64,000 bases of DNA, from positions 32,001-96,000 of IMG/VR virus record IMGVR_UViG_3300032030_000007, one strand, 5' to 3'. This DNA is from a virus. Its lineage: Duplodnaviria; Caudoviricetes. Of the stretch, positions 17,194 to 26,374 are shown in pieces (the stretch's first letter is position 1; each line of letters begins with the position of its first letter). The translations under genes and the position numbers were made by a program. The notes below the pieces were generated by a model that was not told where the DNA came from, ran no database searches, and worked only from the letters and a program-made list of their open reading frames with translations.

Positions 17194-17199
17194 AAATTG

Positions 17200-17582
17200 T
17201 GGACCCAGACAGATTCGAACTGTCGTCTTAATAACCGTCATACTAAAACTTGTTACATGCTTCTTAGAAGTTTCTATCTTCAAAATATCTAGTTTCGTAC
17301 TATTCCAGAAAACCAGAAAACTTGGAGGTACACTTGAATTGAATAGCCAAAAGCTCCTTCCGCTATGTTTGTGAGACTTCTGTTGCCCGACCCGTAGGTT
17401 CTCACTGCGCCGGCTATGCTTATTTATAACCTAACTAATTAAAATAGTATCCCTGAGGGATTAAGCAGCCATCCTGTAGAAAGTATCTTCTTCAGCATTT
17501 ATTGTTTTTGATTCTTTAACGACATAATCAAGTCGACATGATTTTAATACTCAAATTACTAATCAAATACCAAAATGAGCCC
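17200..17582 (-). ncRNA. ssrA: tmRNA; tag peptide (A)AEEDTFYRMAA
   Basis: 5' GGGCTCA pairs with 3' TGGGTCC-A including G3.U70; T-arm GACAG-TTCGAAT-CTGTC; ATAAAT-GCT resume context and a tag ending AA-TAA at 17461-17496; CCA not encoded. Confidence 0.95.
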
Positions 17583-18449
17583 TTATTTAAATAAAATTTT
17601 TCTTCCTTTTTTCCACCCTAAATTAATATAGTAATCTAAATTTTCTTTTTTAATTTTTTTATTAATTTTTTCTTCTAAATTATAAATCCAACATGTATTA
17701 AGTTGATTATTTGTTTTTCTATTTTTTGCAGCTATACTTAATTTTTGTTTATGTTCTTCAGAATGTTTGCGTCCTTTATGATAAGGTATAAATTCTCCAT
17801 TAATAATTAAAGGATCATCTTTATATAACATTTTAACGTTATTATAATTATCTTTATGCTTACATAATATTTTTCCTTTATTAAAAAATAATAATTCACC
17901 AGATATATATCTAGGATCATCTTTATTTACATAGAATTTATTTCCATTTTTATCAATAACACAAACTTTATTTTCAAATTGTTTTTTTAATTCACCAGTC
18001 TCAAATCTTTTATCATTATTTTTTACTAAATAATGATTATTATTTTTATCAACCGCTGGTGTTAATCCATAAGATAATGTTCGATATTCACCAGATATAT
18101 ATCTAGGATCATCTTTAGCCATTAAAATTTGTTCACCAGTAATTGTATTTCTAACAGGAAATAAACCAACTGTTTTTATACCACCTCCACCTAGTACTTC
18201 ATTATAACAATTATTATCCTTTATTAAAACTTCATTTACAATATCTTCTTCATAGTTTAAAGCTTCTTCTCTTGAATTAAAATATTTTAAAATTTCTTTA
18301 GAAAAATTTGAAATTCCATATTTTTTATAAGCTCTATGTAAACGATGACCAGAACCCATATATCCATCATTTAAATTATTAGTAGAATGAATTCCATAAT
18401 AAAAATGATTATTAATTAAATTTATAATTTTATAAAAATAATGATACAT
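17583..18449 (-). mobile_element. Free-standing GIY-YIG (Seg-like) homing endonuclease
   Basis: YFYKIINLINNHFYYG..H..GYMGSG...KYG..NF; KDDPRYISGE repeats; NUMOD3-like KGRKHSEEHKQKLS. Confidence 0.85.
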
Positions 18450-23405: not shown

Positions 23406-23506
23406 ATCTTTATATTTTATTTGTTTGATAATTTAATATAGATCATTATCAAAAAAATTCAAATATAATAAAAAAATGGAACTATAAATTAATCTAATTC
23501 TATTTG

Positions 23507-23577
23507 TAATCCCAATAGGAATCAAACCTATACCTATTCTTTAGGGGAGAATTATGCATTCATTACACCATAGGATC
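23507..23577 (-). tRNA. tRNA-Arg(CCT), degenerate or possibly pseudo
   Basis: Cloverleaf GATCCTA/TGGGATT, ATTCT-CCCCTAA-AGAAT; has C33 and T-loop TTTGATT. Confidence 0.65.
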
Positions 23578-23971: not shown

Positions 23972-24054
23972 AGCTTATACTGAGAATCGAACTCAGATCT
24001 CCACCCAAGATGGTGTTCTCCATCGTCTGTGATTTACCATTAAACTATATAAGC
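23972..24054 (-). ncRNA. tRNA-like RNA with non-canonical elongated anticodon arm
   Basis: GCTTATA/TATAAGC acceptor, D arm, CTGAG-TTCGATT-CTCAG T arm; centre is CAC..GATGG-AGAACA-CCATC..GTG with no 7-nt loop. Confidence 0.7.
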
Positions 24055-24059
24055 ATATG

Positions 24060-24241
24060 TAGGGATGATGGGATTCGAACCCACGCTATGTTTAAGGTGG
24101 TACATAAAACGCGCTTCCTTACTCGAGTTTCACCTCTTTTCAGTGCTTCCGCAAACTTAACTCCTGGATTTCTCCTTCAAGACATTTTCCACCACGACAC
24201 TCGTTTTATCGCGCTCTGTCCAAGTTCTGAGCTACATCCCT
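24060..24241 (-). ncRNA. 182-nt tRNA-like RNA (ACG-type loop) with ~105-nt structured insertion in the variable region
   Basis: AGGGATG/CATCCCT, GCTC/GAGC D arm, CGATA-AAACGAG-TGTCG, GTGGG-TTCGAAT-CCCAT. Confidence 0.75.
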
Positions 24242-24601: not shown

Positions 24602-24717
24602 AATTGAGAACCTTGCAAGTAACCTAATCAAGCATTCAGTGGATTCGAACCAGCATCCCCTCTAACGGGAGGTATTTTACCCTTAAACTATCGTAGTCTT
24701 TTTCGGCATCCTCAATT
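24602..24717 (-). ncRNA. Structured RNA: long terminal stem enclosing a tRNA-like D/central/T core
   Basis: AATTGAGGA/TTCTCAATT, TGC[C]GA/TTGCA, TAGTTTAAGGGTAAAA D-like arm, TGG-TTCGAAT-CCA T loop; no normal acceptor end. Confidence 0.6.
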
Positions 24718-24794: not shown

Positions 24795-24974
24795 ATACAT
24801 ACTCATCTATATAATGATCACTCTATAGAATTTTACAGTTGGCCATCTCACAGTCCGCATATATAATTTATATAACTCGTATATTTTATGATTGCACCTG
24901 CATCCTCATTGAAATTACTGCCACTCCTGACAGAAGGGATTCGAACCCATATCCTCCTAACTTGTAGTATGTAT
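24795..24974 (-). ncRNA. Circularly permuted tRNA-mimic RNA (YrlA-like topology)
   Basis: 9-bp terminal stem ATACATACT/AGTATGTAT; T arm, then closed CTGTCA-GGAG-TGGCAG stem, then TA and ATTTCA/TGAGAT. Confidence 0.5.
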
Positions 24975-26222: not shown

Positions 26223-26266
26223 AAAGAACAAAAATAGCAGAAATTCGTATGTGAACTCCTGCTATT
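26223..26266 (-). terminator. Intrinsic terminator of candidate attenuator
   Basis: AATAGCAGGAGTTC-ACATAC-GAATTTCTGCTATT followed by TTTGTTCTTT. Confidence 0.85.
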
Positions 26267-26302
26267 CAAATATGCATTACTGTTTAGTTTATATCTTTAA
26301 GT

Positions 26303-26374
26303 TCACATAACAATTTTGTAGAATCGTCTAACTCTACGTCTATTGTCTATATTTATGTAAACTATGTTTTTCAT
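26303..26374 (-). promoter_or_regulatory. Arg-rich leader peptide MKNIVYINIDNRRRVRRFYKIVM of a candidate translation-coupled attenuator
   Basis: Codons AGA CGT AGA GTT AGA CGA; the stop lies in TATGTGAACTT, complementary to GAGTTCACATA inside the terminator. Confidence 0.72.

What the first reader, a model, noticed from the sequence alone, without database searches (positions are those of the whole stretch)
24060..24241. 182-nt tRNA with a large structured variable domain that could mask its own anticodon
Seen: intact acceptor, D and T arms and a 5-bp/7-nt arm CGATA-AAACGAG-TGTCG (ACG in the anticodon position, but A32/A33). About 105 extra nt are closed by GGTGG/CCACC and AAAATG/CGTTTT and contain GNRA hairpins (GGA-GAAA-TCC, TGC-GGAA-GCA). 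Alternatively ATAAAACG can pair with CGTTTTAT (8 bp), so an internal CGT Arg codon would sequester the ACG. Inference: a tRNA-scaffolded ncRNA, decoy, switch or unusual intron-bearing tRNA.
Basis: partly seen in the sequence, partly recalled or inferred. Interest (0 to 1): 0.72.

Follow-up and report, generated by a model that had tools for sequence, protein, structure and literature searches.

The report
Phage tRNA-Arg look-alike with giant arm
A group of giant rumen phages carries a conserved 182-base RNA gene shaped like an arginine tRNA with a 98-base folded domain grafted into its side arm; it is almost certainly a non-decoding tRNA-shaped RNA of an undescribed family, and its job is still unknown.

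Summary
On the minus strand, 24241-24060 folds as a complete cloverleaf with ACG at the anticodon position but A32/A33. A 98-nt domain (24193-24096) sits between the anticodon arm and the T arm.

I found 13 distinct copies in rumen-type phage contigs of up to 474 kb. There is one copy per genome, always inside the arginine block of the tRNA array.

Covariation (8 doubly changed pairs; 0 of 500 shuffles reach this) supports the acceptor stem, the anticodon stem and one arm of the insert. The insert core is nearly invariant: 6% of its columns vary, against 20% in the tRNA body.

No Rfam family, ARAGORN call, 5S rRNA or rRNA-operon similarity explains it. The self-masking helix exists in the sequence but has no covariation and costs 4-7 kcal/mol. 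An intron reading conflicts with the substitutions.

Best reading: a tRNA-processed, non-decoding tRNA-Arg mimic that presents a conserved, probably protein-binding domain. It may be tied to the phage's defence of its arginine-tRNA supply. That function is inferred, not shown.

An earlier window of this scan (e1-5611068) contains a copy of the same element on other DNA.

The parts
24060..24241 (-). Whole 182-nt tRNA-Arg-like RNA gene
   Evidence: 13 distinct homologues, 91% mean column identity. The full model has 98.2% of cells paired and 8 doubly changed pairs. It lies 8-9 nt after tRNA-Arg(ACG) and 5 nt before the next tRNA-like gene.
24235..24241 (-). Acceptor stem, 5' strand (pairs with 24061-24067; discriminator at 24060)
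   Evidence: Four of seven pairs changed on both sides: AGGGAUG/CAUCCCU, ACUGGUG/CACCAGU and GAGGAUG/CAUCCUC. The discriminator is A in 10 of the 11 copies that reach the 3' end and G in one.
24213..24232 (-). D arm with G18 G19 A20
   Evidence: Nearly invariant. U8, A14, G15, G18, G19 and A21 are present. A20 is the known ArgRS identity base (established knowledge).
24195..24211 (-). Anticodon-like arm CGAUA-AAACGAG-UGUCG; ACG at 24202-24204
   Evidence: Pair 29-41 switches A-U to U-A in L071 and L079. Pair 31-39 is unpaired in 4 of 12 copies. Loop positions 32-36 (AAACG) are invariant, while positions 37-40 vary.
24096..24193 (-). 98-nt insert: four-way-junction domain in the variable arm
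   Evidence: CM R1 scores the metagenome and IMG/VR copies at 84-126 bits. Outside the tip of arm C only 5 of 85 columns vary. One copy per phage record.
24179..24193 (-). P1 5' strand (GGUGG + AAAAUGUCUU); pairs with 24096-24100 and 24106-24116, with an AUGUA bulge at 24101-24105
   Evidence: Predicted by MFE and RNAalifold. Invariant except U.G to U-A at one pair in L071.
24166..24175 (-). Hairpin A: GGA-GAAA-UCC
   Evidence: Invariant in 13 of 13 copies. The pairing is predicted only.
24154..24165 (-). 12-nt conserved linker ARGAGUUAAGUU
   Evidence: Only one column varies (G/A). GUUUR could pair with UAAAC of the 3' tail; G.U becomes A-U in two copies. This is a suggestion only.
24144..24153 (-). 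Hairpin B: UGC-GGAA-GCA
   Evidence: The middle pair G-C becomes A.C in two lineages. This is the weakest helix of the model.
24118..24143 (-). Arm C: base pairs C-G and Y-R, GAA/AGUA internal loop, variable tip hairpin
   Evidence: The Y-R pair is C-G in 7 copies and U-A in 6, with no exceptions. The tip hairpin occurs in three sequence versions that all keep pairing. GAA opposite AGUA fits the sarcin-ricin/loop-E motif (inference).
24085..24095 (-). Invariant 11-nt tail UUAAACAUAGC ending in C48
   Evidence: 0 of 11 columns vary. The last C can form the Levitt pair with G15 (inference from tRNA architecture).
24068..24084 (-). T arm GUGGG-UUCGAAU-CCCAU
   Evidence: Invariant, with a canonical T loop.

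Best explanation
This is a real phage gene for a stable, tRNA-shaped non-coding RNA derived from tRNA-Arg(ACG).

Maturation (inferred from architecture): it is transcribed with the arginine tRNA cluster and cut out like its neighbours. RNase P makes the 5' end, a 3' end is made after the discriminator, and the host adds CCA. The tight tRNA-like spacing, the covarying acceptor stem and the intact D/T elbow all fit this.

Not a decoder (inferred): it has A32/A33 instead of Y32/U33, and its variable arm carries a 98-nt four-way-junction domain larger than the tRNA itself. It should therefore not decode on the ribosome.

Likely role (speculative): it acts off the ribosome as a tRNA-Arg look-alike. 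It keeps the arginine recognition set (A20, C35, G36, A/G73), so it could be bound, and possibly charged, by ArgRS or by an arginine-tRNA-directed host factor such as an anticodon nuclease. The almost invariant insert (two GNRA-capped hairpins, a GAA/AGUA S-turn arm, a conserved 12-nt linker) would be the effector or docking surface for a protein. My committed guess is a decoy or adaptor that protects or monitors the phage's Arg-tRNA supply.
For: Structure and conservation:
- There are 13 distinct copies with 8 doubly compensated pairs. These fall in the acceptor stem (4 pairs), the anticodon stem (29-41 A-U/U-A), the base of arm C (7 C-G, 6 U-A) and the arm C hairpin.
- The insert core varies in 5 of 85 columns, against 17 of 84 in the tRNA body.
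- In pairwise comparisons the element is 89-97% identical, while matches to the other tRNAs of the cluster range from about 66% to 93% and gene order is shuffled.

Context:
- There is one copy per phage record.
- It always lies in the Arg block of isotype-sorted tRNA arrays, and canonical tRNA-Arg(ACG) genes are also present.

Not a normal tRNA:
- ARAGORN misses it, and the Rfam tRNA model gives only 20.5 bits against a 29-bit threshold.
- A32, A33 and ACG are invariant, while positions 37-40 are the most variable part outside arm C.

Signs that arginine-tRNA supply matters to these phages:
- The cluster carries duplicated, divergent Arg isoacceptors.
- Relatives encode RtcB and Ro60.
- A leader ORF with five Arg codons precedes a strong terminator-like hairpin upstream of the cluster.
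- Phage tRNAs with altered anticodon loops have been proposed as counters to anticodon nucleases, colicin D among them (PMC10264068).
Against:
- Folding energy is no better than that of shuffles (z = -0.45 for the whole element, -0.43 for the insert).
- P1 and hairpins A and B never vary on both sides, so the four-way junction is a prediction. Hairpin B is mismatched in two lineages.
- All copies come from one fairly narrow phage clade, so part of the conservation could reflect short divergence.
- The tRNA body is no closer to the phage Arg tRNAs than to other isotypes: about 0.65-0.72 identity for both. The arginine features could be inherited baggage.
- No partner protein was identified. The adjacent 200-aa gene has no family and gave a poor model.
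- No anticodon nuclease is known for the unknown host.
Confidence: 0.45

Rival explanations
1. Pure scaffold. The tRNA body only provides processing and stability, as in engineered tRNA scaffolds. The arginine features are leftovers of the ancestor. The 98-nt domain does an unrelated job, for example sponging a host or phage protein or RNA.
For: The insert core is 3-4 times less variable than the tRNA body. The acceptor-stem sequence is free to change as long as pairing is kept, and the closing pair of the anticodon stem is lost in 4 of 12 copies. The tRNA body is not specifically Arg-like. Other non-tRNA RNAs sit in the same cluster.
Against: Positions 30-36, including ACG, never vary, while the 3' half of the same arm varies freely. 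The anticodon stem was repaired by a double change. A20 and a purine discriminator are kept. The element has stayed in the Arg block through extensive shuffling of the cluster.
Confidence: 0.3
2. Intron-bearing tRNA. The insert is removed (ligation by the phage RtcB) to give a working tRNA.
For: A complete relative encodes RtcB. ARAGORN in intron mode calls the full element a tRNA with an 89-nt intron.
Against: - ARAGORN's model needs a GCGCG/CGCGU helix that the G-to-A change in L071 breaks, whereas that change improves P1.
- The insert lies in the variable region, not the anticodon loop.
- There is no group I or other ribozyme match in Rfam and, by inspection, no bulge-helix-bulge motif.
- None of the insert deletions tried was called as a tRNA by ARAGORN, and every one keeps A32/A33.
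- The insert is more conserved than the exons.
- A scan of the viral collection with the conserved 5' arm found only insert-bearing copies.
Confidence: 0.07
3. Conformational switch. The RNA toggles between the cloverleaf and a form in which AUAAAACG pairs with CGUUUUAU, hiding the ACG.
For: The 8-bp complement is present and invariant in 10 of the 11 copies that reach it. It competes with P1 for the same CGUUUU strand, so the two forms are mutually exclusive.
Against: There is no covariation. The only change affecting it removes a pair, and the compensating change restores the anticodon stem instead. The mask form is 4-7 kcal/mol less stable in all 11 full copies. No trigger is evident.
Confidence: 0.08
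4. Functional decoding tRNA-Arg with an extreme variable arm.
For: All four arms, the elbow nucleotides, ACG, A20 and a purine at position 73 are intact.
Against: A33 replaces the near-universal U33, and A32 replaces a pyrimidine, invariantly. The variable region is 110 nt with a branched domain, against at most about 24 nt in known long-arm tRNAs (established knowledge). The closing pair of the anticodon stem is often lost. Two canonical tRNA-Arg(ACG) genes lie beside it.
Confidence: 0.05
5. Decaying tRNA pseudogene hit by a junk insertion.
For: It is missed by tRNA finders, and its folding energy is unremarkable.
Against: It is conserved in 13 phage contigs at a higher level than many of its flanks. 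Compensatory changes occur in four helices, and the insert core is invariant.
Confidence: 0.02

Closest known systems
Long-variable-arm (type II) tRNAs: Leu, Ser, bacterial Tyr, Sec
   Same: The extra structure emerges between the anticodon arm and the T arm. The rest of the cloverleaf and the G15-C48 and elbow nucleotides are kept.
   Different: Known arms are single hairpins of about 10-24 nt. Here the variable region is 110 nt with a branched four-way junction and an 11-nt tail. The anticodon loop lacks U33. The isotype signals are Arg, which is never type II.
Small stable RNAs encoded in phage tRNA clusters (T4 species 1 and 2 / RNAC and RNAD; T5 stable RNAs), from general knowledge
   Same: These are non-tRNA RNAs embedded in a phage tRNA operon. 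Their tRNA-like ends let the tRNA processing machinery release them. Their function has long been unknown.
   Different: There is no sequence relationship. Those RNAs lack a full cloverleaf with an anticodon-like arm. The present RNA has a complete tRNA body plus a grafted domain.
YrlA-type bacterial and phage Y RNAs, partners of Ro60/Rsr (Rfam RF02553; PMC4201824)
   Same: They are tRNA mimics used off the ribosome. Relatives of this phage encode a Ro60/TROVE protein, and a Y-RNA-like gene with the GNCGAA-type motif lies 360 nt upstream of the element.
   Different: YrlA is circularly permuted: a Ro-binding stem is formed by its ends where the anticodon arm would be. This RNA is not permuted, lacks the GNCGAA motif, and is not hit by RF02553.
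tmRNA
   Same: A tRNA-like body carries a large internal domain, and a tmRNA is encoded a few kb away in the same phages.
   Different: tmRNA has no anticodon arm and carries a tag ORF and pseudoknots. Here the anticodon arm is kept, there is no conserved ORF and no tmRNA model match over the insert.
Bacterial tRNA genes with group I introns, and archaeal BHB introns
   Same: A tRNA gene interrupted by a structured insert of 100 nt or more.
   Different: Those inserts lie in the anticodon loop (or at BHB sites) and carry a ribozyme core or a BHB motif. Neither is present here, and the insert is the best-conserved part.
Engineered 'tRNA scaffold' for recombinant RNA expression (general knowledge)
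   Same: The same design logic: a cargo RNA embedded in a tRNA so that the cell processes and stabilises it.
   Different: That is an artificial design that replaces the anticodon arm. Here the design is natural, the cargo is in the variable arm and the anticodon arm is retained.

Membership tests
Canonical elongator tRNA (Rfam RF00005 / ARAGORN) | Cloverleaf with acceptor, D, anticodon and T arms and the conserved elbow nucleotides | tested here: met
   All four arms are present, and the acceptor and anticodon stems covary. U8, A14, G18, G19, the UUCGAAU T loop and C48 are present.
Canonical elongator tRNA (Rfam RF00005 / ARAGORN) | 7-nt anticodon loop with pyrimidine 32 and U33 | tested here: not met
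   The loop is AAACGAR, with A32 and A33 invariant in the 12 copies that include the loop.
Canonical elongator tRNA (Rfam RF00005 / ARAGORN) | Detected by the standard models at their thresholds | tested here: not met
   ARAGORN makes no call. RF00005 gives 20.5 bits for a partial match against a gathering score of 29. There is still no call after deleting the insert in silico.
tRNA-Arg identity (ArgRS substrate) | A20, C35, G36/U36 and a purine at 73 (E. coli rules, established knowledge) | tested here: met
   A20, C35 and G36 are invariant. Position 73 is A in 10 copies and G in 1. Actual charging is not testable here.
Type II long-arm tRNA | Variable arm is a single hairpin of about 10-24 nt | tested here: not met
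   The variable region is 110 nt with a predicted four-way junction.
Group I intron in a tRNA gene | Ribozyme core (P3-P9) matching Rfam Intron_gpI, inserted in the anticodon loop | tested here: not met
   No intron or ribozyme family appears at E <= 10 on a 201-nt search. The insert is 98 nt and lies 3' of the anticodon stem, which covaries.
YrlA / Y RNA | Permuted tRNA-like domain plus a terminal stem carrying GNCGAA(N)G; match to RF02553 | tested here: not met
   There is no RF02553 hit on the element, it is not permuted, and the motif is absent by inspection (PMC4201824). The Ro60 gene is present in relatives, but that is context only.
tmRNA | tRNA-like domain without an anticodon arm, a tag reading frame and pseudoknots; match to RF00023 | tested here: not met
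   Only a 12.8-bit partial match over the T arm. The anticodon arm is present, and no conserved ORF is found.
5S rRNA or other rRNA-domain mimic | Significant sequence or profile similarity to 5S, 23S or 16S segments | tested here: not met
   RF00001 gives no hit at E <= 10 in three phage records. An nhmmer profile of 65 bacterial 5S sequences finds nothing. Smith-Waterman against 5S gives z of about 1, and scores against rRNA operons of four phyla are no better than shuffles.
Stable non-tRNA RNAs of phage tRNA clusters (T4 RNAC/RNAD type) | Encoded within a phage tRNA operon, with tRNA-like termini allowing tRNA-type processing, and not a decoder | tested here: inconclusive
   The location and the tRNA-like termini are met. 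Processing and lack of decoding are inferred, not measured.

The most novel reading that the evidence does not exclude
The RNA is a chargeable but ribosome-excluded arginine-tRNA mimic. Its invariant 98-nt domain captures or blocks a host arginine-tRNA-directed defence enzyme, or recruits the phage Ro60/RtcB repair machinery to damaged Arg tRNAs. That would make it a new class of RNA-based anti-defence factor built on a tRNA.
Probability: 0.15. Interest if true: 0.85.

Novelty: new variant of a known kind. Interest (0 to 1): 0.55.

Why it matters
Phage tRNA clusters are usually read as codon-supply or anti-nuclease devices. This element shows that the clusters of giant rumen phages also hold highly constrained RNAs that use a full tRNA body as a chassis for a large extra domain.

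If the arginine features are functional, it would be a natural example of a tRNA mimic aimed at a tRNA-specific enzyme. That would give a concrete handle on what arginine-specific pressure these phages face.

If they are not, it is a natural counterpart of the engineered tRNA scaffold, and its 98-nt cargo is a new conserved RNA domain with an unknown partner.

Either way the family is absent from Rfam 15 and is missed by tRNA finders, so such genes are currently left unannotated.

Tried and rejected
1. Rfam 15 at gathering and at E <= 10, on windows of 64 kb, 1.5 kb and 201 nt. Nothing covers the insert.

2. L1-stalk mimic. GGUGG/CCACC equals E. coli 23S H77 (2120-2124/2174-2178). Beyond that helix and a few flanking bases there is no likeness, and alignment to 23S is no better than shuffles.

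3. 5S rRNA mimic. Short colinear likenesses prompted this: AGUAGGGAA is identical to E. coli 5S 102-110, and GGAGUUAAG resembles GGAAGUUAAG. It was rejected by RF00001, nhmmer and Smith-Waterman controls.

4. Intron model from ARAGORN -i. It is contradicted by the substitutions.

5. Mask-helix switch. No support.

6. Ro60 docking arm. Relatives have a TROVE gene, but the insert lacks the GNCGAA motif and is not hit by RF02553. The Ro60 and RtcB genes are not in this window.

7. Phage ArgRS and CCA-adding enzyme. Neither is found in the relatives.

8. Wider relatives. Six IMG/VR pattern scans and one metagenome scan found only this narrow clade. The 55 other pattern hits were chance by CM scoring. 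No paralogue exists in the 376-kb genome.

10. The neighbouring 200-aa protein. No Pfam, PHROG or Atlas relatives. The AlphaFold model was too poor for a fold search (pLDDT 49.9).

11. Small ORFs and SD-like motifs in the insert. They are not conserved.

Full report
**What the window is.** The window is low-GC DNA (about 27%) with phage hallmarks. These include a tape-measure-like 1211-aa protein, a GIY-YIG endonuclease, NAPRTase and NUDIX genes, and a tmRNA. No whole genome is held for it. Its closest relatives are uncultured phage contigs of 38-474 kb from rumen-type metagenomes. One of them is a 376-kb record rated 98% complete.

**The cluster.** On the minus strand between 24790 and 23506 lies a tRNA cluster in which every canonical tRNA is an arginine tRNA: ACG twice, UCU twice and CCU once.

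**Observation.**
- a 7-bp acceptor stem plus discriminator A
- a D arm with G18 G19 A20
- a 5-bp stem closing the loop AAACGAG, with ACG at positions 34-36 and A at 32 and 33
- a canonical T arm

Between the anticodon arm and the T arm lie one U, a 98-nt insert (24193-24096) and an 11-nt tail ending in C48.

The minimum-energy fold reproduces the cloverleaf and closes the insert with GGUGG/CCACC and a 10-bp continuation. Inside are GGA-GAAA-UCC, UGC-GGAA-GCA and a third arm.

ARAGORN does not call it, and the Rfam tRNA model reaches only 20.5 bits on a fragment. No Rfam family covers the insert, even in a 201-nt search at E <= 10. Its folding energy is ordinary (z = -0.45).

**Homologues.** A neighbouring protein led to a related contig carrying a copy about 90% identical. 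Pattern scans of IMG/VR and of the metagenome collection, checked with a covariance model of the insert, gave 13 distinct copies.
- Each phage record has exactly one copy.
- In every locus it sits in the arginine block of an isotype-sorted tRNA array, often just 5' of tRNA-Arg(CCU). Canonical tRNA-Arg(ACG) genes are also present.
- The cluster around it is mosaic. The element is 89-97% identical between genomes, while matches to the other tRNAs of the cluster range from about 66% to 93% and gene order changes.

**Structure from substitutions.** On the 13-sequence alignment the cloverleaf-plus-insert model has 98.2% of cells paired and 8 pairs changed on both sides. No shuffle out of 500 reaches this, and slid controls collapse to 40-50% pairing. 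The compensations lie in four places:
- the acceptor stem, four pairs, with three different stem sequences
- the anticodon stem, where 29-41 switches from A-U to U-A in two copies
- the base of the third insert arm, where the Y-R pair is C-G in 7 copies and U-A in 6, with no exception, and is partly uncoupled from the hairpin version above it
- the tip hairpin of that arm, which has three different sequences that all pair

Between these two helices GAA faces AGUA. This is the consensus of a sarcin-ricin/loop-E S-turn; that is my inference, not a test.

The remaining insert helices (P1, hairpins A and B) never change on both sides, so they rest on prediction. Hairpin B has an A.C mismatch in two lineages. 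The same G-to-A change would improve a possible pairing of the linker (GUUUR) with the invariant tail (UAAAC).

**Where the variation lies.** Variation is very uneven:

| Region | Variable columns |
|---|---|
| tRNA body | 17 of 84 |
| Anticodon arm | 6 of 17 |
| Tip of arm C | 11 of 15 |
| Rest of the insert | 5 of 85 |
| 11-nt tail | 0 of 11 |

Within the anticodon arm all change is on the 3' side (positions 37-41) plus the compensated position 29. Positions 30-36, including A32, A33 and ACG, never change.

- Mask helix. AUAAAACG/CGUUUUAU is present, but seven of its pairs never vary and the eighth is lost in L071, where the compensating change restored the anticodon stem. With the acceptor, D and T arms fixed, the best fold containing it is 4-7 kcal/mol worse than the cloverleaf fold in all 11 full-length copies.
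- Intron. ARAGORN in intron mode proposes a tRNA with an 89-nt intron, but its anticodon stem (GCGCG/CGCGU) is broken by the G-to-A change in L071, which instead improves P1. None of the insert deletions tried gave an ARAGORN tRNA call, and every one keeps A32/A33. The insert is also the most conserved part.

**Tests for mimicry.** I therefore tested this insert against rRNA.
- GGUGG/CCACC is identical to E. coli helix 77 of the L1 stalk.
- Short blocks resemble 5S rRNA, including a 9-mer identical to E. coli 5S 102-110.
- None of this survives controls. RF00001 finds nothing in three phage records. An nhmmer profile from 65 bacterial 5S genes finds nothing. Local alignment to 5S (z about 1) and to rRNA operons of Proteobacteria, Bacillota and Bacteroidota is no better than shuffles.

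I therefore treat the insert as a new domain.

**Context.**
- Complete or large relatives encode a Ro60/TROVE protein and an RtcB ligase. They have no ArgRS and no CCA-adding enzyme. Neither the Ro60 nor the RtcB gene lies in this window.
- The RNA gene at 24717-24602 has paired ends, GCCGAA (the YrlA motif GNCGAA; PMC4201824) and an internal T arm. It is the more likely Ro60 partner; the present element lacks that motif.
- Upstream of the cluster, a 23-codon ORF with five arginine codons in six positions precedes a 15-bp terminator-like hairpin. This arrangement is conserved in two relatives.
- Duplicated, divergent Arg isoacceptors are present as well. Phage tRNAs with altered anticodon loops have been proposed to evade anticodon nucleases, colicin D among them (PMC10264068). 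Together these suggest, but do not show, that arginine-tRNA supply is a pressure point for these phages.

**Interpretation.**
- Shown: a conserved, single-copy, tRNA-shaped gene whose acceptor stem, anticodon stem and one insert arm are under selection for pairing, and whose insert core is under strong sequence constraint.
- Inferred: tRNA-type maturation, from the tRNA-like spacing and termini with no encoded CCA, as in the neighbouring tRNAs. Exclusion from decoding, from A32/A33, the branched 110-nt variable region and the frequent loss of pair 31-39.
- Speculative: that the retained arginine identity set matters, and that the RNA acts as a decoy or adaptor for an Arg-tRNA-directed factor, with the insert as a protein-binding surface.

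The main rival is that the tRNA is only a chassis and the cargo has an unrelated target. The tRNA body is not specifically Arg-like, which keeps that rival strong.

**Novelty.** tRNA mimics and stable non-tRNA RNAs in phage tRNA clusters are known kinds: T4 RNAC/RNAD, YrlA, tmRNA. This family, a full cloverleaf with an Arg anticodon-like loop lacking U33 and a 98-nt invariant branched variable arm, matches none of them and is absent from Rfam 15. I class it as a new variant of a known kind. Earlier notes of this scan describe other giant-armed or cargo-bearing tRNA-like RNAs in phages, and one earlier window contains a copy of this same element, so the architecture may be a broader, undescribed theme.

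Noticed in passing
window 24602-24717 (-): RNA gene with paired termini (AAUUGAG/CUCAAUU), GCCGAA near its 5' end (the YrlA motif GNCGAA) and an internal D-like and T arm. It is probably a YrlA-type Y RNA. Relatives of the phage encode a Ro60/TROVE protein (G004 about 129.4-130.9 kb).
   Followed up: partly
window 23972-24054 (-): 83-nt tRNA-like gene 5 nt downstream of the element. Rfam tRNA gives 46.7 bits but ARAGORN makes no call. It has good acceptor and T arms, but a GAUGG-AGAACAC-CCAUC arm without U33 and a 12-nt variable region. It is present only in the closest relatives.
   Followed up: partly
window 26232-26374 (-): 23-codon ORF MKNIVYINIDNRRRVRRFYKIVM whose arginine run (AGA CGU AGA GUU AGA CGA) uses codons read by the cluster's own isoacceptors. 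A 15-bp terminator-like hairpin and a T-run follow. This is a candidate Arg-sensing attenuator, conserved at 89-95% in L077 and L081.
   Followed up: partly
L001 4623-4740; L066 1635-1755: In some relatives a conserved RNA of about 115 nt follows the element directly; it contains CUCAGAAGCGUGG...UCAUAGCU. It is absent from this window.
   Followed up: partly
window 23506-23577 (-): The tRNA-Arg(CCU) of this window has the loop CCCCUAA, with C at position 33 instead of U. The orthologue in L003 has a normal UUCCUAA loop.
   Followed up: no
window 17197-18449 (-): A tmRNA (tag AEEDTFYRMAA) is directly preceded by a GIY-YIG/NUMOD3 homing-endonuclease-like gene. tmRNA tags differ widely among relatives, e.g. 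ANDELVDDAWLNSWEYRMAA and DDVTEYRMAA.
   Followed up: no
L071 1-14313; L079 6500-13249; L001 2000-9700: tRNA arrays of 22-27 genes sorted by amino acid, with several divergent copies per anticodon. They contain over-long calls (80-93 nt) and kilobase gaps that probably hold further non-tRNA RNAs.
   Followed up: no
window 24795-24974 (-): A conserved non-coding stretch at the head of the cluster, 88-91% identical in L001 and L081, containing a T-arm-like GGGUUCGAAUCCC. In L001 ARAGORN calls part of it a 93-nt 'tRNA-Ile(tat)', probably spuriously.
   Followed up: no
L061 1153-1246 (+): Weak match to the insert model (19.2 bits, E 0.04) in an unrelated 54%-GC viral contig. Probably chance.
   Followed up: no
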